Shown here: positions 3,562 through 60,933 of the stretch, one piece after another
How the letters are laid out: the number at the start of each line of letters is the position of its first letter
Position numbering within the stretch: position 1 is the stretch's first letter
Assembly (NCBI GenBank): GCA_964016885.1
Contig: OZ024741.1
Coordinates: 275,590,001-275,654,000 of the forward strand
DNA: 64,000 nucleotides
Reading direction: 5' to 3'
Source of the DNA: Eledone cirrhosa
Lineage: Eukaryota
Notes under the pieces: generated by a model
The model's input: the letters and a program-made list of their open reading frames with translations, nothing else
Told to the model about the DNA's origin: nothing
The model's database searches: none
Position numbers and translations under genes: made by a program

Positions 3562-4399
3562 AAGACAGGGGGAAGAAAAAATGGCTTCACTTGTGCTTTC
3601 AACAAATTTATTTTCTTCACAAAATCCAAAAAGAATTTTTCTTAAAAAAAAAAATTTTATAAATTAAGTTGTTGGTTGTTGGTTTCGTCTTAGGAGTTCT
3701 TGGTTAACGTAGGAGGTATTGTTTCGTTTTTAGAAAGACCTTTCACGCTGAGGTGCGCTTGTCAAACTGATGTGTATGTGGTGTGTTGTTCTATATATAG
3801 GGATTTAACATGTCTGTGGAGTGGTGGGGGTTTCTTTTCTCCCCCTTTAATAAGTGCATGGGTGTAGGTGTGTTGAAAAAGTGTTCATAGCATTAATGAG
3901 TTGAGACGGTGAGTAGAGTTGGGTGGGGAGAAATTTAGCAAGTGCGGCCTGCCCCGGTCATTCTCGAAAAATTTCTTTATTCAGGGGAAAAAGCTTTTAG
4001 CATTGCTTTTGTGTTGAGAATGGTCACAGGCAAATCGCACCTGTCAAGTTTGTGAATAATTATTTTTTTATTTTTTTCCTGAAGAATTTTTCTACGTCCA
4101 TCCCAAAGTTAGTCCTTTGTTCAACACACACATATATGTGTGCATGTACGTACATACACACACGGGCATATGTAGGAATATATAGGCACACACCATGAAT
4201 CACACACCCATGTACAAATACATACACAAAAACATATAGAGACACATATAAAAACACACATACACATACGTACACACACGAATATGTACTTATACCTCCA
4301 CATGGGTACATATATATATATATATACACATATATATACACATATACATACATACATATATATATATATACATACATACATATACACATACATACACAT

Positions 4400-4481
<82 letters not shown>

Positions 4482-4538
4482 ACATATACATACATACATA
4501 TACATACATATACACACATAAAGATACATAATTAAATA

Positions 4539-4626
<88 letters not shown>

Positions 4627-4743
4627 TACATACACATACAAATACACATATGTACACATAAATACATACAGACACATACACACATATACACATACATATA
4701 CACATACATATACACATACATACATATCCATATACATATATAT

Positions 4744-4813
<70 letters not shown>

Positions 4814-4921
4814 ATATATATATACACATACATACACATACACATACACACACATACAAGTACATACATACACACATACATACATACACATACATGTACA
4901 TACATACATACATACATACAC

Positions 4922-4952
<31 letters not shown>

Positions 4953-5253
4953 TACATACATATATATATACATATATATATACATATATATACACATACA
5001 TACACACATACACACATACATATATATATATGTGCGTATACACGAGCACATAAAGACACATATACACACACACATATATATACATATATATACATATATA
5101 TACACATACATCTACATACATACATACATATACACAAACAGAAACATACACATATGTACACACATATATACATATATGCACATACATACACACACACACA
5201 TATATATAGGTACATACACATACATACACACACACATAAACATACATATCTAT

Positions 5254-5336
<83 letters not shown>

Positions 5337-5381
5337 TATATACAAACATACACATACATACATGTACATATACACATATAT

Positions 5382-5414
<33 letters not shown>

Positions 5415-5480
5415 CATATATATATACATATATATATATACACACACACATACAAACATACACACATCCATACATATATG

Positions 5481-5523
<43 letters not shown>

Positions 5524-5674
5524 ACACCCACATACATATATACCCACACGTACATACATCCATACATCCCTACACACATATATGTGTGTGTCTCACCGTT
5601 CATTCAGATATTCATGTGTATAAATAAGAAGAGGGGGGGGGTAGTGAAATGGAATTTTACCTCCGAGTGTTAAT

Positions 5675-7660
5675 TCATTTTTTCGTGTTCAGTAGTGGTT
5701 TAAATTTTTCAATGAAGAATTCTTCTTTATATCTGCGGAAATGTTCGTTATCCGACCATATCTTGAAGAAAGGGAAGATTGTGAATTTTCCCTTCCTGCA
5801 TGATGCAAAGTGTGCGCTACATATGGTATTTCTGACTGTGGGGTCTTTAATCTGTTGTTTATGTACCCGGACTCTATCATGTAATCCCGTTCCGGTTTCC
5901 CCAATGTAATACTCTTTACACTGTGGACATGTTGCGCAATATATTAGGTTTTTCGTTTTGCAGTTCATGTTAGCATTGACCTTGAAATTATCATGGTTTT
6001 TGAAGGACAACTGTTTTCCCTCTTCGATGAGTTCACAGGTTCCACATCTAGGGTCCCCGCATTTCGTCACTTGCATTGATTCCATGTTGGTCGTAAATTT
6101 TGCCTTGGTAATTAGTTTTTTAAGGTTGGGTGCTTGGCGTCTGCTATAAATTATCTGTGTTTTTTTTAAGAGTGCATTCATTTTGGTAGATTGCTGTAGA
6201 ATCGGGAGATACTGCTTAGCAGTTTTCACAATGTTGATGTTCCCTGGGTTGTGACTGATGACAAAAGAGATAGCAGGGTTTTCTTTTTTATGTTGTGGGT
6301 TTGGTTTTCTCAGTGTTGTTATTGGGATGTTCTTAGCCTTGGAGATGGCTGCGTTGATGAGTTTCATCGGGTATTCTTGTTTTTTAAGGAATTTTTTCAG
6401 GTCACATAATCTTTTTTCTTGTAGTACGGGGTGTGTTGCTATAGTGCAGATGCACCTTGCCATGTTGAAGGGAATGTTCCTTTTCGTATGTGAGGGGTGT
6501 GCTGACCGGAAATTTAAGTATTGGTGTGTCAGTGGGTTTGCAAAATAGGTCCGTTATGATATTTTCCCCTTCTTTAATGATGAGGATATCTAGAAAGGGC
6601 AGTTCCTTTTCGTTACATTCCATAGTGAATTGTATAGCTTCATGAAGCCTGTTTAGGATCGAATAACATTTTTGTAGGTCTGTTTGGCTTCTGTTCCAGA
6701 AGATGAAGCAGTCATCTAGGTAACGTTTCCAGTTTTTATTAATGTAGAAGGCGAAGTCGTGACTGAATGTTATCTGTAGTTGGGAATATAATTTTGCCTC
6801 TAAGTGACCCATAACGAGCGTTGCATATGGCTGTTCCTTTTATTTGTAGATAAAGTTCGTTGTCAAAGAGGAAGTGGTTGTTTTCCAATACTAATTTAAG
6901 TCCTTCCAAGATGAATTCTTTGGGGAATCTTTCTGAAATGTGACTTGAGTGTTTTGTAATCCAGAAGTCCACAGCTTCAATCCCTAGGTCGTGTGGGATG
7001 TTAGTGTACAGGCTTATTACATCAAAACTGACTAGGATTGTATCCTGGTGTACTTTTTGGGGGATAAAGTTAAGGAATTCCATATCATCTCTGATGTAGC
7101 TTGGAACTTTTTTACATAGGGGTTTGAGTATGATGTCTAATAGGTTGCTTAGACGTTGTGTGCTTGAGGCTGGGCCAGCAATAATGGGGCGTAATTTTAA
7201 ATCTGTCGGTTTTGGTGCTTCGATGTATGATGTATTTTTCCCTTTTATGTTGTTTTGGATTTCTATGGATTTGTGAATTTTTGGTAATCCATAGAAATTG
7301 CTGGTTTTCATTTCGAAGTTGGTTAGGTAATCTACTTCTTTTGGTGTTAGGTTGTTTTGGTACTTTGTTGTTAGTTTGCCTATTTGGTTCCTCGATTTCC
7401 TTTCTTCGTTTTTAGTGATTTTCCTGTAGAAGTTTTCGTCATTCAAGTGTGCTAGGACCATATCTTTGTAGTGGTTTGTGTCCATGATGACGATTGCTCC
7501 ACCTTTGTCCGCTTCTTTTATTATTATTGAGGAATCTCTTTGTAGCTTGTTCAATGCTAGTAGTTGGTCTGTAGGGAAGTTGCATTTGTGTTTCGTCTCG
7601 GCCGTATTTGTACGTACTGATCGGCGAAGGCAGGTTATGTATTCCTCCAGGTATTTATCT
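5675..7660 (-). pseudogene. PLE reverse transcriptase + GIY-YIG endonuclease, frameshifted
   Basis: Three overlapping ORFs: [57 protein letters not shown] Zn-knuckle, NLIYCATC..YYIGET. Confidence 0.92.
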
Positions 7661-7666
7661 CTATTT

Positions 7667-7757
<91 letters not shown>

Positions 7758-7928
7758 ACGTGTGTGTGTGCGTGTGTGTGTGTGTGTGTGTGTATGTGTG
7801 CGTGTATGTGTATATATGTATATTTAGTTATGTATCTTTATGTGTGTATATGTATGTATATGTATGTATGTATATGTATGTATATATGTATATATGTATA
7901 TATATGTATATGTATATATATATGTATG

Positions 7929-7959
<31 letters not shown>

Positions 7960-7966
7960 ATGTATG

Positions 7967-7997
<31 letters not shown>

Positions 7998-8476
7998 ATA
8001 TGTATGTATATGTATATATATATATATATGTATGTATATATGTATGTATATGTGTATGTATGTATATATGTATATATATATGTATGTATGTATATGTGTG
8101 TATATATATGTATGTATGTATGTATATGTATATGTATATATATATATGTATATATATATGTATATATATATATGTATGTATATATATGTATATGTATATA
8201 TATATGTATATATATATGTATGTATATATATATATATATGTATATATATATGTATGTATATATATATGTATGTATATGTATATGTATGTATATATATATA
8301 TATGTATGTATATATGTATGTATGTATATATATATATATATGTATATGTGTATGTATGTATGTATATATATATGTATGTATATATATATGTATGTATATA
8401 TATATATATGTATGTATATATATATGTATGTATGTATATATATATGTATGTATATATATATGTATGTATATACATA

Positions 8477-9090
8477 TGTGTCAGGTCACCAGTTGGTGCT
8501 ACTGGTAACATGTATCCCAGTACAATCTGTCTCATGGTCGGGTCGTTGGCGATTAAACTGGCAACCCCACCAAGGTTTCTTGGTGAGGAGGGTGACTTTG
8601 GACATCCTGCAGGACTAAAAACAAAACCTGTCAAAGGGTAAAGGAGCTCTTAAGAGTCAATGCCATCCAAAATCACCGGGAGAGATGACCCCTTAGCCTT
8701 TGTCAAGGCAGAATTCTAGGAGAAGGAAAACTCTGATATAACACCTGCAACCCTGATGGTATCCAATGATGTTGAATTGTTCTTCTTTTTGGTAAATATC
8801 ATCTTGGTTAAGAGAGTGGGACTGGCTTTGTGCAGTGCCTTTGCTCACTATAAAAGCTTCACAGCACAGGCATTGCTTTATATCTGGAGATCTCTCTGCA
8901 CTTGTCGTCACATGGTACCATGGGCCCAGCACTATGTGTCAATAATTGTCACAAGTGTAGTGTTTGTACCAGAGTTTTCAAGTCGCTGGCTGGACTAAAA
9001 AGTCACATTCGTTCAGCGCATTGGTAGAGGTTCTCCTACATGGATATAAAGTAGTGGCCGTACTCGAAAACGAGTTGGCAGCCACCATAT
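8477..9090 (+). mobile_element. Internally deleted, non-autonomous RTE derivative (putative 5' UTR joined to zinc-finger 3' end, (TATG)n tail)
   Basis: 8905-9088 matches the reverse complement of RTE 3' end 36960-37142 (CSVCTRVFKSLAGLKSH); upstream part resembles RTE 5' UTR (tctaggagaaggaaaactctg). Confidence 0.65.
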
Positions 9091-15203: not shown

Positions 15204-17372
15204 CTCTTTTACCTGTTTCAGCCATCCGGCTGAAGCCATGCTGGGGCACCGCCCTTGTTGCTACACATTTTATCTCCAGCCTGTATAGGTTGGCCACTGG
15301 TGTAGGAGGGAGTTTGTTGCTGCTGCCCTTATGTTTCCCTCGTGTCTTGCTGTGGGCTCATCCGGGATCCTGGATAACAAGGTGTCGAGATGTTTCTTAA
15401 AGACATCCACCCCCACGTCATGCAAGTCTCGCAGATGCCTCGGCAGCCTGTTGAAGAGTTGAGGGCCCTTGAATCCCAGGCTATTGCAATACCTGCTCCT
15501 TATTCTAGATGTGGAAGACGGGACCTTTGGCACCACACATTGACGTCCTGTTCGACGGTTGGTCCAGCTCCCAATGCCAAAATTTGGTGCTAGTCCCTCC
15601 AGGATTTTCCACATGTAGATCACTGCGTATCTCTCCCGTCTTCGCTCCAAGGAGTAGAGGTTCAGTTCCTTTAGCCTCTCCCAGTAGCTTGTCTCCCTCA
15701 TCTTGGCAATCCTCTTGGTGTAGCTTCGCTGGATTGCCTCAAGCTCCGTGGTTAGTTTGACACTATGGGGTGACCACAGCTGGGAGCAGTAGTCCAGGCG
15801 GCTTAGGACAAAAGTCCTCCACAGTGTCAACATGGTGTCTCGATCTCTTGTAAGGAAAGTCCTCAAGATCCAGCCAGCGAATCGTCTACATGTTGTCGCC
15901 ACCTTCATGATGTGTGAAGAAAAAGATGCATCATCGCTCATGTCTATGCCCAGGTCTCGTATCGATTTTGACACGGGGATATCGGTTCCTCCTGCTCCTG
16001 TGTAGCTGTGTTCCACTATATTTGTGTTTGCAGGTTTGTATTGTAGGGCTTGGAATTTGCCAGCATTAAACTGCATGTTGTTTTCTTCCGCCCATCTGTA
16101 TATGGCATCCAGATCCTGCTGTAAGAGGGCAGCGTCAGCCGGGTCTTTGATTGCCTGTGCTACCTTAGTGTCATCAGCATAGCTAGTGAGGGATGTTGTT
16201 GCATGCACCACAGAGGGCATGTCCGAGAGAGCCACCAAAAACAGTAGTGGTCCCAGGACTGTCCCCTGGGGCACCCCACTTGTTATCGGTGTTTCCCCCG
16301 AGAGGGCCCCATTTGCTGCGACTGCCTGGCTTCTGTCCCTTAGGAAGCCATGCAGCCACTCACCTACTTTTCCAGTTATGCCGAGTCCGTGTAGTTTGTG
16401 ACATATCATTCCGTGGTCGACCTTGTCAAAGGCCTTCGCAAAGTCAAGATATATCACGTCTACATGTGAGCTGTCTAGTACGTGTCTCAGTACCCAGTCG
16501 TAGTGATGTAGCAGCTGTGTAAGGCAGCTTCTTCCTGGGCGGAGCCATGTTGCGTGCTAGTCAGGCGGTCATTTTCTTCGAGGAAAGTGATTAGTTTCTT
16601 TCTGACGACTCGCTCCATGACCTTACTGATATGCGACGTCAGGGAGACTGGCCTATAGTTCTTCGCCTCCGCTCTACTACCTCCTTTATGGATAGGGCAT
16701 ATTGTGCCTTCTTTCAACTCCCTGGGTAGTACACCGCTAGCCAAGGAGCTTCTGAAGAGCATCTTCAGTGGAGTTGCTAAGGCCCGCTTACATATTTTTA
16801 GGAGAACTGCTGGGAATCCATCAGGTCCAGCAGCCGAGTCTGTTCTAATTTCATCAATGGCGTACACCACATCCTCCTCCGTTATGTCTATGTGGTTGAT
16901 GGTTGCCATTTCTTGATGTAGTGTTGTGGCATTAAAGAACTCCTCTGGCTTCGTTATTTGCATGTGCCTCAGTGGACATGTGAAGACACTTTTGTACTGT
17001 TCGTTCAGTATTTCACATATCTCTTGGGGATTTTCGGTTAATGAACCATCCGTGTGGAAGTGTGGTCCAATCTTGCAGTGTACTGAGGCAGTTTCTTTTG
17101 CAAATTTAAAGAAGGCCTTAGGGTTTGTTTTAATGTTTTCTATGGCCTTGTTCTCTTTCTTTGCCCTCTCATTCTCATGTGAAAGTTTCAGTGCAATCTC
17201 GGTGTCAAGTAGTGCACGTTTCAAATAGGATTCCTTCTTGTTTTGGTTTTGTTGACTATTCAACTGGTTTGAGAGTTTAGTTCTACGTCTCATAAGGATT
17301 TTCCTATCTCTGGGAATAAGATTTTTGTGTCTGTTTGCCTCTTTCTCCGGGACACACTTTTTGCATATGGTG
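15204..17372 (-). mobile_element. 5'-truncated CR1/Jockey-group LINE (RT domain, one frameshift near 16530)
   Basis: [59 protein letters not shown]; 3' end runs into (TA)n. Confidence 0.92.
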
Positions 17373-23535: not shown

Positions 23536-25640
<2,105 letters not shown>

Positions 25641-29488: not shown

Positions 29489-31898
<2,410 letters not shown>

Positions 31899-36144: not shown

Positions 36145-36545
36145 ATCATCATCATCATCATCATCACCGTTTTTACGTCCGTTCTTCCACGCTAGCATGG
36201 GTTAGACGGGTTGTCCTGTTGTGGGCAGTGTCTGGTCAGCTGACCTTCTCTTGCTCATATGGGAACTGATTCTGGCTTGATTTCTACAGCTGGATGCCCT
36301 TCCTAGCACCAACCTTATTTACAGTGAGTGCTGGGTGCTTTTTTACCGTGGCACCTCCACGACCACTTTGCAGTGGAATGATATGGGCCCCCAGTCCCTA
36401 TCATCTCATTTCTACAGCTGAGTAAACTGAAGCAATGTGAAATAAAGTGTCTTGCTCAATGAAACAACACATCACCCGGTCTGAGAATTGAACTCACAAC
36501 CTTTCGATTGCAAGCCCAATGCTCTAACCACTAAGCCATGTGGCT
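36145..36545 (-). mobile_element. tRNA-derived SINE with RTE-derived 3' tail and (GAT)n
   Basis: tRNA-like head (tggcttagtggttagagc..gagttcaattc), core cttgctcaa..aacaaca, tail identical to RTE 3' end at 63225-63400. Confidence 0.8.
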
Positions 36546-50018: not shown

Positions 50019-50214
50019 CTGGAAAGAAACAGTGGAAATCTTTTATAAAAAAATTACAAATGTGGTCAGATTATAAATTTGTTATGGATGGGGGTGGGAA
50101 ACAGGTCCCAGTGTGGCTTTGATTGAACAGAAATATGATCAAAGGTATTCTGGTAAAAGCATGTATATAGTACTTGAAAAAGGTGAGATACTCATGACTA
50201 GAATGTATTTGATA

Positions 50215-50410
50215 ATAGATTTGATCATAGATTTGATCACAAATTTGATCATAAATTTGACCATTGATTTGATCACAGATTTGATCACAAATTTGATCAT
50301 AAATTTGACAATTGATTTGATCACAGATTTGATCACAAATTTGATCATAAATTTGACCATTGATTTGATCACAGATATGACCAAAGATTTAATTGATCAG
50401 AGTTGATCTG
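50215..50410. repeat. 12-bp minisatellite (atttgatcacar) with 60-bp higher-order unit
   Basis: Read directly. Confidence 0.85.
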
Positions 50411-50701: not shown

Positions 50702-50750
50702 CTGTTGGGAATACACACACATACATATTACATATATATATATATATATT

Positions 50751-52538
50751 ATAATAGAATATAAAAGAAAAAGAAAAACGAACACGGATATACACATATA
50801 TGTGTTCAAATCGTAAGGGACCAGATTCGCTAAGGTGAAAAGAATACTAACTATAGACAATTGGGTTTGCTTGTCTCAATTTAAGAATAAATCAAGAAAA
50901 TAAATACAAACCGGAATTGTGGTAACTACCAATCACCCAGACAGCTTGTTGTTGTTTTGCAATGTTAGTTGTGAATAGAATTACCAATTCAAGCTCATCA
51001 GTGGGTGATGAATTAGTATCCTAGACACTTCTAAGTATATTAAGAAACTGAATAGTGTGCTATATATAATAGCGCACATGGCATCCTAGCGCGTCTCACA
51101 AACTTACACCACTAAAAATAGCAGCCAGGTTTATTCGACATTTGAAATAGCTCAACAAATTAACGGAGCTGAATATATCAAAGGTATATATTGAGTTAGA
51201 AACTCAAAATAGTCTCTTACAATAAAATAGCTCTAAGAAAGAGATATTTCCGAGCCATATATTATAATAAAATATAAAAGAAAAAGAAAAACGAACACAG
51301 ATATATACAGACCTGGAGACAATGCAGCAATGGATCACAGACTGGCAACTGAAGCTGGCTGTGGACAAGTGTACCACCATGCATTTTGGAAGGAAAAATC
51401 CAGCGTCCACATACTCCCTCCACAACACTGATATCAAGAAGTCCTCTTGTGAACGTGACCTGGGCATTACTGTCAGTAGCAATTTGCGTTGGACAAAGCA
51501 TGTCTCTAAGATTGTCAAGAAGGCCGAGGGTGTCTTGGCATCACTCAGCAAGACCTTTGTTAGCCGCTCTCCAGCCATCTATTTAAAACTGTATACAGCT
51601 ATGGTACGACCACACTTGGAATTCGCATCATCAGTCTGGAATCCCTACCTTGCTCAGAACATTGACCTCCTGGAAACTGTTCAGAGACGTGCAACCAAGC
51701 GCATACCCTCCATCAGACACCTACCATACTCTGAACGCCTTGCTTCCCTGGGCATGGATTCATTGAAGCTCTGATGTCTGGCAATGGACTTGGTGAATAC
51801 CTACAAATTTATTAACCATCTCGCCAATTGCAACCCTGAGCACCTTTTTGATCTCCATGTGTCTAACACACGTGGACATGCCTACAAAATCACTAAACAG
51901 CACAGCTCCCATGATTTTCGTAAACATTTTTTCACCCTCAGAGTTGCTGAAGCATGGAACAAACTGCCTGCGTCAGTTGTTAGCTGCCAAGACACTGCAT
52001 CCTTTAAGACATTCATGCTTCCCGAAATACGCCAAAACTACACCTGATGTACCCCTTCCATACACATGCACACATGTGTGTATCATGACTCGTGCACTGT
52101 TCATTTTACTGATGTTTGTGCATTATCCTATGTACTGTACATGTACTTTTTGATGAGTTGTGGTGCACCTGGGCACTGTACACAATATTTCATTATTATT
52201 ATTATTATTATTATATCATGACTCATACACTGTTCATTTTCCTGACATTTGTACATTATTCTATGTACTATACATGCACCTTTGATGAGTTGTAGTGCAC
52301 CTGAGGACTGTACACAATAATTTCATTATTATTATTATATATGTGTTCAAATCGTAAAGGACCAGATTCGCTAAGGTGAAAAGAATACTAACTATAGACA
52401 ATTGGGTTTGCTTGTCTCAATTTAAGAGAGAATCAAGAAAATAAATACAAACCGGAATTGTGGTAACTACCAATCAGCCAGACAATTTTATTGTAAGAGA
52501 CTATTTTGAGTTCCTAACTCAATATATACCTTTGATAC
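50751..52538 (-). mobile_element. Retrozyme-like tandem element (513-bp period) with type I HHR at 50932-51009 and short inverted end, interrupted by a LINE
   Basis: 50751-50943 repeats as 51264-51309 + 52337-52484; 52485-52538 is the reverse complement of 51174-51228; atcaccca-CTGATGA-gc...gc-aAAA-caac-aacaa-gctg-TC-tgggtgat. Confidence 0.75.
51310..52336 (+). mobile_element. CR1-group LINE 3' fragment with duplicated 3' UTR and (ATT)n tails
   Basis: ERDLGI, MVRPHLEFASSVWNPY, VQRRATKRI, TRGH, FFTLRVAEAWNKLP; 52083-52213 repeated at 52214-52336. Confidence 0.9.
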
Positions 52539-52554
52539 ACACACACACACACAC

Positions 52555-52601
<47 letters not shown>

Positions 52602-53103
52602 CATACATTTCCTACATATATATATAAATATGTGAATTTTTTTATTTCTAAAGAAATATGGTATGTTTATAAAAAAAATATTCTGAAAACCATAGCTATG
52701 ATTATAACATTGGCAGTCAGTGCCTCCCAGCAGTGCCTGGCAGAAGCAAGGGAGACAACTGTTGATGCACTTCAAACTTAAATGGTTCTCATCAGGATGG
52801 TGTTTCCCTCTTGCCACAGTTGAAAATATATAGTTTTCTCATGAGGGGATTAAACTCATTTGCATTTGAAGCTGTACAAGTTGCCTCAACTTAAAATAGA
52901 ATTAGAATTTAGCTTCGAACATAGCTGTATACAAATATGTATGTGAATTTCGTATTTCTAAAGAAATGCGGCATGTTTATAAATATATATATACATACAC
53001 ACACATATGTACATACATACATACATGCATCTATCCATACATACATGCATACATATATACACACATACATATATACATGCATACATACATACATACTTAC
53101 ATA

Positions 53104-53138
<35 letters not shown>

Positions 53139-53146
<8 letters not shown>

Positions 53147-53250
53147 TAAAATAACAGATTAAAGTTTAAGCAAAGAATCGCTGCTTTCACCCTTAACGGG
53201 ATCTTCTGAAACTCTTTGCTTAAACTTTAATCTGTTATTTTAATAAATAT
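53139..53250 (-). mobile_element. Palindromic mini-element: 38-bp perfect arms around a decayed HHR core
   Basis: 53139-53176 is the reverse complement of 53213-53250; centre (-) CaGAAGA-tccc-gttaa-gggt-GAAA-gcagc. Confidence 0.65.
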
Positions 53251-57220: not shown

Positions 57221-60200
57221 ATAGATAAATTTCTTTATTAGCCACAAGGGCACAAAAGAAGGGGACAAATACAAATGGGGAGTTTACATACAGGTATATG
57301 AAAATAAAACTATTAATAAAATAACAAATAACAATTGAAATCCCCAATAGGGGGGAGGCGTTACACAGGGGTTGTACACACCCCGAAAAAATGTACAACC
57401 CTCATCTCCAGGAGCACCAAGAGTGAGTACTCCCTTCCTCTCTTCCTCTTTTTCCTCAACCTACAGGCTTATATAGAGAGAAGGCCCAACCACTCGAGCC
57501 ATCTTTGTCACATTCACCCACCTTTTTAAAAATTTGCTGGGGTACAGCACCTCTCTCTCCATCCTGATTCTTCTTCCAAAATGATATTTGAAAAAACGAA
57601 TCAGTTGCTCGCTGGAGATAAAGGTGTCTGACCTCAGCCCTTTTAACCTCGTCCACCATATAACCTCTTTCACCATAGCCATGACACATAGGAAAACCGC
57701 CTCTCCCTCGGTTTTGAAGGAGGGTGGCGGTTTGATCATGACAATGGACTTGGTGGTCAACTGGATTAGTCCCACCCGTGACAATAGTCGTTCTACATCG
57801 CCCACAAGTCGGTAACGCCCGGGCAGTGTACAAATGCGTGCGCGACGGTTTCTTTGTCGCGCACACATCTCGGACAGATCTTTTTCGAAGGGTCCCTACC
57901 CGGGCGCCCGTGTCTGTAGAGCTTGTCTCGAACTGGTAGAGCTCCTCGGTAGCACTGCCAGGCCAGGGATTTTGGAAGTTGTCCATTGGTTCCGGGCGGA
58001 AGGTCCTACCGAACAGATTGGCCAGTTTGTCCTCTACACCTAGAGTTTCTCCGAGTGTGTCGTCGCACTTACTGCGGACCAACCCTCTATAGAATGTCGA
58101 AGTGGAGTCTCCACTGATCGCTGGGTCCGTTTGCCAGAGGGCTGTGAGCGCCTGAGCACATTTTCCTCGGTCTTTGCTTGACCCAGGACTGCAGCTTGGT
58201 CAGCGAGACGAGTCGTGGAAAGGCTTGCCTCACGAATGGGGCCCACACCGGTTATCTGGTGAGGAATACGTGGAGGTGCTGCAGCCTGAGTGCGTGTTTG
58301 CGCATCGTCAGCCACGGCATCCCCAGCCCTCCGTTTGAAGGGTGTTGGCAGCAGATGGATCTTCTCACCAAAGGAGCCCATTTCTTCCAAAGAAATTGAA
58401 AGAGCGCGCGCTCCATTTTGGTGAGCGTTTTGGCTGGACAAGGCACGACGGTCAAGTGGTAGTAGATGACAGACGCGATAAAAGTGTTCGCCACCTCTGC
58501 TCGACCTTTCAAGGATAGTTTGCACTCGGCCCACTTCTGGGTGAGCGCAAACACCTTGGCCATCACCTCGTTCAAGTTCTTCTCCACCTGGAGGTTCGGA
58601 CAAAACCAGACCCCGAGCAGCTTTACCGGTCCTTCCATCCAGTGTCCGATGACGTCATCGGAAGGCATCGGTTTGCCTCTCCATGTTCCGAGTTGCAAAC
58701 CAATGGATTTGTCCCGGTTCAGCTTCGCTCCTGTGAACCTTTCGTATTCCTCCAGTAAGGTGCCGACCTCCTCGATTTGCGAGGCGCTTGACACCATTAC
58801 TGCCACGTCGTCGGCGTAGGCCGATGCCGCTTTTCGCAGTCCCGGTTCCAAAGGGATGCTCTGCAATAGCTCCAGCTTCCGCAGTAGTGGCTCGAGAGTC
58901 AGTACGTACAGAAGGGAGGAGAGAGGGCATCCCTGTCGGATGGATTGCGTGATATGGATCGGCCCCGAGAGGTAGCCGTTCACCTTGACCCTTGAGCAGA
59001 TGTTGCTGCTGTGAATTGCAGCAATCCAGCCCCTGAACACGAGTCCAAAGCCTGCCGCCTCGAGCACCGCATCCAGGTAACGATGGTCAACCCTATCGAA
59101 AGCCTTAGACTGATCCAAGTTGATCAGGGCCCCACCGAAGCCAGGTTTACACCCTACCCTCTCTACGATGTATCGCATGAGGTGGAGGTTGTCGTGTATG
59201 GACCTGGTCGGGATTGCGCATGTCTGCGCTTCTCCCACCAGGTTTTCGATGACAAGCGCCAACCTCTTTGCCAACACCTTGGCCAAAATCTGTAACTCTG
59301 TGTTGAGCAGAGTTATGGGCCGGAAGTTGCCTATGTCATCCCCCTTATTCTCGTCCTTCCTGACTAACGTGACTACGCCCTTGGTCACAGAACTGGGAAT
59401 TCTCCCGTTCTGCTGCCAGTTGCAGTAGACCGCTTCCAGGAGACTGGAGAACAAGTCCGACATTGCTACGTAAAATTCGTAGGGTAGACCGTCGAGACCT
59501 GGAGATTTGCGTTTTCCGCATTGGCTCAGCGCGTCCCTTATCTCAGCGGCCGAAATCGGCCTTTCGCAGAACTTCGCCTCGCTGTCTAAGAGTCACAATA
59601 GACCGTCGAGGTATGGACCGAAATCCATAGCCCCTCCCGGTGCGCCGCCCTGCCTGAACAGTTGAGCAAAGTGCCGCTGAAAGGCCGCACACATCTGCTT
59701 TGGCTCACGTATCACGCGTCCGTCTTGGTCCTTCAAAGACCGAATCGTGGACTTGTTGCCACTTTTCGCCTCCGTCACTCGGGCCCAGCTAACAGCTTTG
59801 GCTCCCTCGTTTCCCAGAGCACGTATTTTGCTTCTGACAATGCAGCCTTCATGCTTTGTGTCGAAGAACTGGTCCAAGACTGTTCTCGTCGCTAGCACGC
59901 TGGCTATGTTGCCACTCCTAAGTGCCTCTTCTACTTTATCTACCAGTTCCTTTTTGGTCTTAGTTCTATCTAACACTAATTCTTTACTAAAACCTATCGA
60001 GTCTAATCTAACTGCCCTCTTGAGAGTGTACCACCATCTGTTGTTGACAATGGCCCCCGTCAAGTGCTGCTTAACTAAAGTGCTAATCCATCTACTGTAG
60101 GCTTTGCATGTCGGTAACGACAAGTTCAGCTTCCAGTAGCCGAGTCCCTGTCTATGGGGTTTGTCAAGGTTGACTAAGCAGGTTACTAATTTGTGATCTG

Positions 60201-60933
60201 AATAGGCAACCATGAACATTTGTGGAGAGCTTAACATGTCCCTATCCTTCTTTTTAACTAGAACCCTATCTAGGTACGATCTAGATGTTCCGCTGAGATT
60301 AGTCCACGTCCACAGTGGCACAGTCGGAAAATCTAGTCGATATCTATCGGCCAGGTCAAATCGGCCAATTAACTGTTTGAGGCTGTTACACCCCCCTTTA
60401 TCGGGACATGCTCCCACATAGTCCCAACGTGCATCTAGGATTCCATTCCAGTCCCCCACTAACAGCAGGGAGTGGGATGTTCCCAGAAAAGTCTCTAGAC
60501 GTTTGAAGAAGTCTGGCTGCGGTGTCCCGGATGGGGCATATGCGGCCACCAGCCTGAAGGCTCCACCTTCACTACCGTCAACGTCTACCAGTCGACCCTC
60601 AGGGTCCAGATGTACCGTCTGTGTTACGAGGTCCAGGTGTTTCCGCAGCAAAATGGCAACCCCACCCCCACCTCCTGGCTGACAGAGAGAGGCGTAGATT
60701 TCAAAGTTGTCGAAGGTGGGGGCCAGTTGTTGCTCGCTGTGGATCCTGGATTCGCAAATGGCTACTACATCCATACTGTGCGACCTGAGGTCGTTTAAGA
60801 GTTTTCCCTGTTTCCAGGGCATCCCCAGGCCGCGTACATTCACACATCCAACTCTTATATTGGCCATGTTGGTGCTGAAAAGTTAAAAGAAGAGGAAAAG
60901 AAATCACTCACCTCTTCGTCTCCTGGGGACCAG
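57221..60933 (-). mobile_element. L1/Tx1-clade LINE: near-complete ORF2 (APE endonuclease, RT, Zn-knuckle) with a few lesions
   Basis: ATG 60867, NVRGL, GDWN, SYLDRV, SDH, WKLN; stop at 59593; KSPGLDG, FRPITLLN, LDQSKAFDRV, RQGCPLS, YADD, GGLG; AATAAA + (CTAT)n tail. Confidence 0.93.

What the first reader, a model, noticed from the sequence alone, without database searches (positions are those of the whole stretch)
50751..52538. Unrelated retrozyme-like family: 513-bp tandem period whose 5' end maps to the hammerhead cleavage site
Seen: after removing the CR1-group insertion there are ~1.4 tandem monomers. The monomer carries a type I HHR with 8-bp stem I and a G12>A change at a CpG. The partial copy begins (minus strand) at 52484, only 4 nt upstream of the predicted GUC^ site, and is capped by a 54-bp inverted piece. 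Inference: reverse transcription of a self-cleaved multimeric or circular RNA, finished by PLE-style inversion.
Basis: partly seen in the sequence, partly recalled or inferred. Interest (0 to 1): 0.75.

Follow-up and report, generated by a model that had tools for sequence, protein, structure and literature searches.

The report
Decayed hammerhead retrozyme, Penelope-style insertion
This is one worn-out copy of a small non-coding jumping repeat that carries a hammerhead ribozyme motif and was likely pasted into a TA microsatellite by a Penelope-type retrotransposon enzyme; it is a new family of a known kind, and its start near the predicted ribozyme cut site is not a family-wide rule.

Summary
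Window 50751-52537 contains 1.38 head-to-tail units of a 513-nt repeat on the minus strand. A 1,027-bp 5'-truncated LINE splits it, and a 53-nt inverted piece caps it. The unit carries a type I hammerhead (HHR) motif with an 8-bp helix I and A in place of G12.

Family level: the 3-Gb genome gave 3,149 first-look candidates. G12 is G in 125 of 139 copies, so GAAA is restored. Helices I and III show compensatory changes between subfamilies.

The cleaved-RNA inference is not supported. Of 239 mapped arms, 2 start exactly at the cut site and 17 lie scattered over q317-333. No 3' ends fall there. The window copy itself keeps 4 nt upstream of the scissile bond.

The Penelope-like (PLE) architecture is strongly supported:
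- variable 5' truncation;
- partial tandems up to about 1.8 units;
- head-to-head inverted arms in 150 of 239 arms;
- (TA)n next to 133 of 157 canonical 3' ends;
- a strict rule that one arm ends at q513 and the other at q91 (46 of 46 pairs). The window copy obeys it.

Verdict: a new member of the metazoan non-LTR retrozymes. RNA circles and self-cleavage remain untested because no RNA runs were available.

The parts
50751..51263 (-). Full 513-nt unit (q1-513) of the repeat. Its 3' end (q513, ...TTCTATTAT) abuts (AT)n.
   Evidence: It is 95% identical to the best-preserved family copy, L066. The q513 terminus is shared by 79 of 239 arms.
50932..51009 (-). Type I hammerhead motif, inactivated in this copy. 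G12 is A (50958). There is an A-C mismatch in helix III (q312/q320). C replaces the majority U at q296 in helix II. The predicted cut lies between 50940 and 50939.
51264..51309 (-). 3' part (q468-513) of the upstream partial unit, continuous with the full unit.
51310..52336 (+). Later insertion of a 5'-truncated LINE. It holds the post-RT region of the ORF with two stops. Its 3' end has a 133-bp tandem duplication and an (ATT)n tail.
   Evidence: 133-bp period, 1.9 copies, 52081-52338. (translation; tblastx to the RVT_1 ORF at 15645-15986, E 6e-18). Pfam found no domain in the two ORF pieces.
52337..52484 (-). 5' part (q321-468) of the upstream partial unit. It begins 4 nt upstream of the predicted cut site and holds only the 3' strand of helix I (TGGCTGAT, one change).
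   Evidence: 97% to 50796-50943.
52485..52537 (+). Inverted 5'-truncated arm, the reverse complement of q36-88. Its outer end lies at the family's second fixed terminus (q91 class, ...CCTTTGATA).
   Evidence: I1, 53 nt, 98%. Short inverted arms confined to q1-91 occur in 8 of 46 pairs.
50712..50750 (.). Left flank: compound (AC)n(AT)n microsatellite. With the right flank it is a candidate long target-site duplication (inferred).
   Evidence: About 38 alignable nt, with CA-then-TA order on both sides.
52538..52631 (.). Right flank: (AC)n(AT)n microsatellite.

Best explanation
Window 50751-52537 is a single, mutationally dead insertion of a non-coding 513-nt repeat family that carries a type I hammerhead ribozyme motif, and it was likely reverse-transcribed into a (CA)n(TA)n microsatellite by the enzyme of a Penelope-like retrotransposon.

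Shown:
- The unit is non-coding. The longest stop-free stretch is 79 aa even in a trimer, and GC is 33%.
- It is dispersed in at least several hundred copies.
- The hammerhead core is intact in the family majority and is supported by compensatory changes.
- Insertions have fixed 3' ends at two sites 91 nt apart (q513 and q91).
- They have variable 5' ends and partial tandems.
- They have head-to-head inverted arms that always combine one q513 end with one q91 end.
- (TA)n lies next to the 3' ends.
- A LINE later split the window copy.

Inferred:
- Both 3' ends of a staggered break in the microsatellite primed cDNA synthesis on element RNA. One primed at the q513 site (the long direct arm, 706 nt here). 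The other primed at the q91 site (the 53-nt inverted arm here). The two cDNAs were then joined at their variable inner ends.
- The start of the direct arm at q321 is one of a loose cluster of stops at the 3' edge of the ribozyme. It would reflect the reverse transcriptase stalling or switching template at the folded RNA. It is not a run-off at a self-cleaved end.
- In active master copies the ribozyme would process transcripts. Self-cleavage and RNA circles are predicted from the family's likeness to retrozymes and are untested.
For: Copy number and age:
- 3,149 first-look candidates, of which 40 were scored, at 92-95% identity.
- 605 exact genome-wide hits of a 22-mer at q325-346 and 876 of one at q403-424, with 0 for the reversed controls.
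- 46 full units have a mean pairwise identity of 91%.

Hammerhead motif:
- G12 is G in 125 of 139 copies and H17 is C in 136 of 139.
- 60 of 139 copies pass a strict descriptor that gives 0 hits in 2 Mb of random sequence.
- The helix III pair q312-q320 is A-U in 61 copies and G-C in 57. The helix I pair next to the cut is A-U in 129 and G-C in 6.
- The catalytic fold lies 2.5 kcal/mol above the MFE.
- The circular unit folds at z = -4.2 against shuffles.

PLE architecture, in a sample taken in positional order along contig 1 (the first 100 places of each anchor):
- 239 arms were mapped. 3' ends fall at q91 in 78 and at q513 in 79.
- 150 arms are head-to-head, and 44 are longer than one unit, up to 818 nt.
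- 133 of 157 canonical 3' ends are followed by (TA)>=3, against 9-17% background.
- All 44 pairs with two canonical ends combine q91 with q513 (binomial p 1e-13). With a minimum arm length of 20 nt the count is 46 of 46.
- Both subfamilies use both ends: A-U 11 and 6, G-C 9 and 8.

PLEs in the genome: a GIY-YIG ORF lies at window 5675-6553. Its family gives 37,780 first-look candidates, up to 98% identity, and open frames to 796 aa.

Literature:
- PLE insertions show 5' truncation, partial tandems, an adjacent inverted 5'-truncated copy, a tail at one end only, and a (TA)n bias (PMC8557442, passages).
- Metazoan type I hammerhead repeats are non-LTR retrozymes, likely mobilised by PLEs (PMC7229834, passages; 10.64898/2026.07.22.740005, abstract and Results part 1).
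Against: - No Rfam hammerhead model reaches significance. Helix II is unusually long at 36 nt. The MFE of the isolated motif is a competing fold. Catalytic activity is therefore unproven.
- No partner PLE was identified. The abundant PLE family present in the window shares no sequence with the repeat and has no conserved hammerhead within 1.5 kb of its endonuclease domain.
- Long tandem arrays, the usual form of non-LTR retrozymes, were not seen. Only 1 of 239 arms holds two complete ribozymes.
- In the biased top-hit sample, 2 of 10 pairs break the two-ends rule (L014 and L016). L016 is a palindrome that includes its flanks.
- The (TA)n next to 3' ends could be an element tail and not the target. 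Only 29 of 89 unpaired arms have (TA)n at the 5' side.
- The sample requires an exact anchor word in at least one arm, so very short or very old insertions are under-represented.
Confidence: 0.78

Rival explanations
1. The copy was reverse-transcribed from a hammerhead-cleaved multimeric or circular RNA, and its 5' end marks the self-cleavage site.
For: - The direct arm starts 4 nt from the predicted cut.
- 5' ends are about twice as dense as a uniform expectation over q317-333 (17 of 239), and none fall in q298-316.
- Three arms start exactly at q325: L065 and L112 and L025.
- Arms longer than one unit exist (44 of 239).
Against: - The copy contains UGUC upstream of the scissile bond, so that site was intact in the template.
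- The cluster is diffuse (317, 318, 319, 320, 320, 321, 321, 322, 324, 325, 325, 326, 326, 328, 332, 333, 333). It is no stronger than the hot spots at q1, q381, q402-403 and q453.
- No 3' ends fall at q324.
- Only 1 of 239 genomic arms has the two complete ribozymes needed to excise a unit.
Confidence: 0.1
2. A SINE-like element mobilised by a LINE (such as CR1/L2), with inversions made by L1-type twin priming and no Penelope-like element involved.
For: - LINEs with AP endonuclease and RT are present in the window, and one inserted into this very copy.
- Twin priming is known to give 5' inversions. That point is recalled, not checked here.
- No PLE partner was found.
Against: - In twin priming the second primer anneals internally on the RNA. 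Here both arms carry a fixed 3' terminus outward, and they always carry the two different ones (46 of 46).
- Partial tandems, a one-sided tail, a (TA)n bias and a type I hammerhead are the published PLE combination (PMC8557442).
- The element shares no tail with the LINEs seen in the window.
Confidence: 0.08
3. An ordinary satellite or segmental duplication with a chance hammerhead-like motif, with no RNA intermediate.
For: - Rfam does not recognise the motif.
- One insertion occurs twice 25.6 kb apart as an identical copy (L020 and L021).
- L016 is a palindrome that includes its flanks.
Against: - Copies are dispersed over many contigs with different flanks and different truncation points.
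- The descriptor gives 0 hits in 2 Mb of random sequence.
- Helices I and III show compensatory changes.
- 3' ends are fixed and 5' ends vary.
Confidence: 0.02

Closest known systems
Metazoan non-LTR retrozymes (Cervera and de la Pena 2020, PMC7229834, passages read; Li, Clavereau and Pollet 2026, bioRxiv 10.64898/2026.07.22.740005, abstract and Results part 1 read)
   Same: - Small, non-coding, low-GC repeat with a type I hammerhead.
- No LTR, primer-binding site or polypurine tract.
- Co-occurs with PLEs in the same genome.
- The unit length of 513 nt lies inside the 51-972 bp range that Li et al. report for consensus lengths.
   Different: - It occurs mainly as dispersed insertions of 0.1 to 1.8 units with inverted arms, not as arrays from dimers to large multimers. 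1 of 239 arms has two complete ribozymes.
- Helix II is 36 nt and helix III is 5 bp, unlike the short helices described for amphibian motifs.
- Rfam models miss it.
- Circular RNA and self-cleavage were not tested here.
Insertion architecture of Penelope-like elements (Craig et al. 2021, PMC8557442, passages read)
   Same: - Strong 5' truncation.
- Partial tandems (pseudo-LTR).
- An inverted 5'-truncated copy at the 5' end.
- An extension ('tail') at only one end.
- (TA)n microsatellite bias.
- In canonical PLEs the hammerhead lies in the repeat part.
   Different: - There is no RT or GIY-YIG ORF, so the element is non-autonomous.
- The 'tail' is 91 nt, against the 30-40 bp described.
- The one-tail rule is strict here (46 of 46 pairs).
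- The one PLE family I examined in this genome shares no sequence with it.
Plant LTR retrozymes (Cervera et al. 2016, PMC4918200; search listing and abstract start only)
   Same: Non-autonomous retroelement with hammerhead ribozymes, thought to spread through circular RNA.
   Different: Plant elements have type III hammerheads in LTRs and a primer-binding site and polypurine tract, and are mobilised by Gypsy elements. None of this applies here.
Newt/salamander satellite 2 and axolotl hammerhead repeats (as described in PMC7229834, passages)
   Same: Type I hammerhead in a repeat of a few hundred bp.
   Different: The amphibian motifs have a helix III of 1-2 bp and cleave as dimers within long tandem arrays. 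This motif has a 5-bp helix III in the family majority and sits in dispersed short insertions.

Membership tests
Hammerhead ribozyme, type I | Conserved core: C3 U4 G5 A6 N7 G8 A9, G12 A13 A14, A15.1-U16.1, and H17 not G | tested here: met
   The family majority has every core nucleotide. G12 is G in 125 of 139 copies and H17 is C in 136 of 139. The window copy itself fails at G12, which is A.
Hammerhead ribozyme, type I | Three helices around the core, with helix I open and helices II and III closed by loops | tested here: met
   - Helix I is 7-8 bp in 59 of the 60 copies that pass the descriptor, and helix III is 5 bp in 46 of 60.
- Compensatory pairs: helix III A-U 61 / G-C 57; helix I A-U 129 / G-C 6.
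- The constrained catalytic fold is -17.0 kcal/mol against an MFE of -19.5.
Hammerhead ribozyme, type I | Match to a curated covariance model | tested here: not met
   There is no hammerhead hit at gathering score or at E<=1-10. The best hit is RF03152 at 17.6 bits, E 0.5, gathering score 56.3. In that alignment 33 nt fall in an insertion in helix II.
Hammerhead ribozyme, type I | Self-cleavage activity | not testable with these tools
   This needs in vitro transcription of a G12-intact copy.
Metazoan non-LTR retrozyme | Short non-coding unit of low GC carrying a type I hammerhead, without LTR, PBS or PPT | tested here: met
   The unit is 510-513 nt with 33% GC, and the longest stop-free stretch is 79 aa in a trimer. 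The hammerhead evidence is given above.
Metazoan non-LTR retrozyme | Tandem arrangement (dimers to multimers), so that two ribozymes flank a unit | tested here: inconclusive
   Partial tandems are common (44 of 239 arms exceed one unit; maximum 818 nt in that sample and 943 nt in L017). Only 1 of 239 arms has two complete ribozymes. Arrays elsewhere in the genome are not excluded, because only 40 of 3,149 candidates were scored.
Metazoan non-LTR retrozyme | Expressed as linear and circular RNA of unit length | not testable with these tools
   No RNA run is listed for this organism.
Metazoan non-LTR retrozyme | Co-occurrence with PLEs | tested here: met
   A GIY-YIG ORF lies in the window. Its family gives 37,780 first-look candidates.
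PLE-type insertion (non-autonomous) | Fixed 3' end with variable 5' truncation | tested here: met
   3' ends fall at q91 in 78 and q513 in 79 of 239 arms. 5' ends spread over the whole unit.
PLE-type insertion (non-autonomous) | An inverted 5'-truncated copy adjacent to the 5' end | tested here: met
   150 of 239 arms form 74-78 head-to-head pairs. In the window this is 52485-52537.
PLE-type insertion (non-autonomous) | An extension (tail) at only one end of the insertion | tested here: met
   In 46 of 46 pairs with canonical ends, one arm ends at q513 and the other carries the extra q1-91. There are 2 exceptions among 10 pairs in the biased top-hit sample.
PLE-type insertion (non-autonomous) | Microsatellite, here (TA)n, insertion bias | tested here: met
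   133 of 157 canonical 3' ends are followed by (TA)>=3, against 9-17% background. The data do not separate target from tail.
PLE-type insertion (non-autonomous) | Sequence shared with the terminal repeat of an autonomous PLE | tested here: not met
   The one PLE family examined (30 copies) shares no sequence or hammerhead with the repeat. Other PLE families were not examined.

The most novel reading that the evidence does not exclude
The strict one-of-each rule may be the footprint of how a Penelope-type enzyme integrates. In 46 of 46 head-to-head pairs, one arm starts at q513 and the other at q91, 91 nt downstream, and both subfamilies use both sites. On this reading the two DNA ends of a staggered break in a palindromic (TA)n repeat prime on one RNA, circular or multimeric, at two fixed AU-rich sites that bracket a 91-nt recognition segment. 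The published 'tail at one end' would then be the distance between the two priming sites. The lack of 5' ends in q298-316, beside pile-ups on both sides of it, would be a genomic record of the folded ribozyme blocking the reverse transcriptase.
Probability: 0.3. Interest if true: 0.6.

Novelty: new member of a known kind. Interest (0 to 1): 0.38.

Why it matters
It adds a family of hammerhead-bearing non-coding retroelements that standard ribozyme models miss. The family shows all the published hallmarks of Penelope-like insertions. That supports, from insertion anatomy, the proposal that animal retrozymes ride on PLEs; earlier support came from co-occurrence or sequence likeness. The strict pairing of two fixed 3' termini gives a simple, countable signature. 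An in vitro PLE system or a genome-wide census could test it. The mechanism behind PLE tandem and inverted structures is stated as open in PMC8557442 (passages). For the window itself the result is ordinary: a dead, LINE-interrupted copy.

Tried and rejected
- RNA evidence: the look-up of sequencing runs listed no RNA holder. It gave four runs of one study, kind unknown and kept as contigs. Laying them gave only fragmented repeat contigs that also cover the flanks. It gave no information on RNA ends, circles or expression.
- Rfam: gathering and E-value scans of the window, the region and 10 sister loci gave no hammerhead. Only a non-significant hit appeared on 101 nt.
- Partner search: the PLE family in the window was fetched as 30 copies. 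Its 3' region is a conserved TG/TA-rich low-complexity stretch unrelated to the repeat. My descriptor found 7 scattered hits there and no conserved one.
- Sum of arm lengths: the median is 605.5 nt, close to 513 + 91, and arm lengths correlate negatively (r = -0.39). I rejected both as evidence for a single shared template. The median equals the sum of the two medians. The requirement that at least one arm hold an anchor word produces a negative correlation by itself.
- Apparent pile-up of 5' ends at q1 (17 arms): this is largely an artefact of the linear query and of the diverged, low-complexity q450-513 stretch. By eye these arms start around q497-503.
- The 5' end cluster at q447-468 seen in the first 30 loci shrank to about twofold in the positional sample. 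No defined full length exists.
- The core-intact count of 83 of 139 is an undercount. In 20 copies BLAST placed a 3-nt gap inside GAAAC.
- TRF cannot report the 513 period because its longest period is 500.
- Earlier-findings look-ups by place and by sequence returned nothing.
Full report
**Observation.** I number the unit q1..q513 = window 51263..50751, read on the minus strand.

The repeat finder shows three things:
- a 53-nt direct repeat at a spacing of 513 (50744-50796 and 51257-51309, 94%);
- a 148-nt direct repeat at a spacing of 1541 (50796-50943 and 52337-52484, 97%);
- a 53-nt inverted repeat (51176-51228 and 52485-52537, 98%).

On the minus strand the element therefore reads, in order: an inverted piece (reverse complement of q36-88), then q321-468, then a 1,027-bp foreign insert (51310-52336), then q468-513, then q1-513. 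The direct part is 706 nt, or 1.38 units.

The insert translates into the conserved post-RT region of a LINE reverse transcriptase. It matches the window's RVT_1 ORF by tblastx (33% over 114 aa, E 6e-18). It ends in a 133-bp tandem duplication and (ATT)n.

The hammerhead lies on the minus strand at 51009-50932:
- helix I, ATCACCCA/TGGGTGAT, 8 bp;
- CUGAUGA;
- a 36-nt helix II closed by G-C and C-G;
- AAAA where GAAA is expected;
- helix III;
- GUC, with the predicted cut between 50940 and 50939.

The partial unit starts at 52484, 4 nt upstream of that cut.

**More than chance?** My own descriptor finds only this site in both strands of the 64-kb window. It finds none in 2 Mb of Markov-1 random sequence. 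Rfam gives nothing at gathering score, at E<=10 on the region, or at E<=1 on ten sister loci. On 101 nt of the best copy, the top hit is a hammerhead model aligned in the same register. It scores only 17.6 bits (E 0.5, gathering score 56.3), with 33 nt of helix II treated as an insertion. The call therefore rests on the motif, its rarity, and covariation. It does not rest on a curated model.

**The family.** The window lies in a 3.0-Gb genome (G000, contig 2).
- A search with the unit gave 3,149 first-look candidates, of which 40 were scored. Full-length matches are 92-95% identical.
- Two 22-mers of the unit occur 605 and 876 times exactly, and their reversed controls occur 0 times.
- I fetched the first 100 places of each word in positional order along contig 1, giving 136 loci. 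I mapped them with BLAST and chained hits into co-linear arms. This gave 256 unique arms, 239 of them at least 40 nt long.
- 46 full units have a mean pairwise identity of 91%. One copy (L066) is 98.8% identical to the column majority.
- The unit is non-coding. The longest stop-free stretch is 79 aa in a trimer, and GC is 33%.

**Is GAAA restored?** Yes.
- Of 139 copies that cover the ribozyme, position G12 is G in 125, A in 11 (the window copy among them), C in 2 and T in 1. H17 is C in 136. The majority reads GCGAAAC, so the G-to-A change in the window sits at a CpG.
- 60 of 139 copies pass the strict descriptor, and 10 more pass if A is allowed at position 12.
- Helix III in the majority is 5 bp. 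Its fourth pair (q312-q320) is A-U in 61 copies and G-C in 57, with 14 copies holding G-U or mismatches.
- The helix I pair next to the cut is A-U in 129 copies and G-C in 6.
- The second and third pairs of helix II are U-U mismatches in about half the copies and A-U in the other half.
- These compensatory changes between subfamilies indicate that the fold was maintained while master copies diverged.
- The catalytic fold is 2.5 kcal/mol above a competing MFE fold.
- The whole unit folded as a circle is more stable than dinucleotide shuffles (z = -4.2).
- The window copy has three lesions: G12A, an A-C mismatch in helix III, and a broken pair in helix II.

**Do ends cluster at the cut site?** Not in the way the inference needs.
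- Of 239 arms, 17 begin in q317-333, at 317, 318, 319, 320, 320, 321, 321, 322, 324, 325, 325, 326, 326, 328, 332, 333 and 333. Two begin exactly at q325.
- That density is about twice a uniform expectation. It matches other hot spots: q1 17, q453 6, q402-403 9, q381 5.
- No 3' ends gather near q324.
- Arms that start at q317-322, like the window's, contain nucleotides upstream of the scissile bond. Their template was intact at that site.
- One pattern is unexplained. No arm starts in q298-316 (about 9 would be expected), while about 10 start in q279-297 and 11 in q317-325. I read this as a likely effect of RNA structure on the reverse transcriptase. This is inference only.

**What the architecture is.**
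- 3' ends are bimodal: q513 (...TTCTATTAT) in 79 arms and q91 (...CCTTTGATATAT) in 78 arms of 239. Both subfamilies use both ends.
- 133 of these 157 ends are followed by (TA)>=3, against 9-17% background.
- Lengths are broad with no defined full length. 44 arms exceed one unit, with a maximum of 818 nt here and 943 nt in L017. Only one arm holds two complete ribozymes.
- 150 arms sit head-to-head with an opposite-strand arm, 3' ends pointing outward.
- Following a lead from earlier notes of this scan, I cross-tabulated the two 3' ends of each pair. All 44 pairs with two canonical ends combine q91 with q513, and none is concordant (binomial p 1e-13). With a minimum arm length of 20 nt the count is 46 of 46.
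- In the biased top-hit sample, 7 unique pairs plus the window are discordant and 2 are concordant. One of the two, L016, is a palindrome that includes its flanks.
- In 8 of 46 pairs the q91 arm is so short that it lies wholly inside q1-91. The window's 53-nt cap belongs to this class.
- The window's two flanks are both (AC)n(AT)n in the same order and align over about 38 nt. I take this as a likely long target-site duplication (inferred).

**Comparison with what is known.**
- Craig et al. 2021 (PMC8557442, passages) describe PLE insertions as 5'-truncated and arranged in partial tandems (pseudo-LTRs). They are often preceded by an inverted 5'-truncated copy and carry a 30-40-bp tail, often at one end only. 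Several clades are biased to microsatellites, (TA)n for Naiads. Canonical PLEs have hammerheads in the pLTR.
- Cervera and de la Pena 2020 (PMC7229834, passages) define metazoan non-LTR retrozymes as short, low-GC tandem repeats with type I hammerheads. [quoted passage not shown]
- Li et al. 2026 (preprint; abstract and Results part 1) report consensus lengths of 51-972 bp, widely varying monomer proportions, and likeness of retrozymes to PLE pLTRs.
- The present family fits both descriptions. It differs in four respects: scarcity of arrays, a long helix II, a 91-nt 'tail', and the strictness of the one-tail rule.
- PLEs are abundant in this genome. A GIY-YIG ORF lies at window 5675-6553. Its family gives 37,780 first-look candidates, up to 98% identity, and open frames of 796 aa. 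That family shares no sequence or hammerhead with the repeat. The partner is unidentified.

**Verdict.**
- retrozyme-like family: yes;
- restored GAAA: yes;
- PLE-style inversion: yes;
- 5' end as the mark of a self-cleaved RNA: no.

This is a new member of a known kind. Expression, circularity and catalysis could not be tested, because no RNA holder was listed.

Noticed in passing
window 5675-7827 (-), with flanks 4060-5673 and 7828-8650: A Penelope-like element. A 292-aa ORF with a C-terminal GIY-YIG domain follows a 362-aa ORF. TA/TG low-complexity tracts lie on both sides. The family is very abundant and young: 37,780 first-look candidates, up to 98% identity, open frames of 796 aa. Its 3' region is a conserved TG/TA-rich stretch.
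   Followed up: partly
window 53140-53250; also L004 1189-1299: A hairpin of about 110 nt (MITE-like inverted repeat) sits beside TA repeats. The L004 copy hits the plant miRNA model MIR7723 at 62 bits, far below its gathering score of 200. This is probably a small foldback transposon.
   Followed up: no
L075 (G000:C1:218613466-218613851): The 22-mer at q403-424 recurs five times at a spacing of exactly 91 nt. This is a local tandem amplification of a 91-nt piece of the repeat. The equality with the 91-nt tail length may be coincidence.
   Followed up: no
L016 (G000:C3:262050140-262051117 and flanks): The two arms both end at q91, and the unique flanks on either side are reverse complements of each other. 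The whole insertion with its flank is a palindrome: either a post-insertion inverted duplication or an assembly artefact.
   Followed up: partly
L020 and L021 (G000:C4:353148426 and 353122821): The same insertion, with identical structure and flanks, occurs twice 25.6 kb apart. This is a segmental duplication.
   Followed up: no
family coordinates q298-316 (window 50966-50948): None of 239 arms has its 5' end in this 19-nt stretch, which covers the 3' strand of helix II, GAAA, and the 5' strand and loop of helix III. Both neighbouring stretches collect about 10 each. This is unexplained and may be a structure effect on reverse transcription.
   Followed up: partly
window 50207-50390: A 12-nt / 48-nt tandem repeat (ATTTGATCA-type, 15 and 3.6 copies) lies 360 nt upstream of the element.
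   Followed up: no
window 24331-25341 (-) and 29873-31039 (-); 58252-60882 (-): Two ORF fragments join an RT domain to a PHD finger. There is also one LINE with AP endonuclease and RT. The window is dense in retroelements, and its first 2 kb are almost pure (TA)n (GC 9%).
   Followed up: no
window 36481-36538 (-); similar sequence in flanks of L008, L019, L028: A tRNA-like match lies just above the Rfam gathering score (31.2 bits). tRNA-derived SINE-like sequence recurs next to several copies of the repeat.
   Followed up: no
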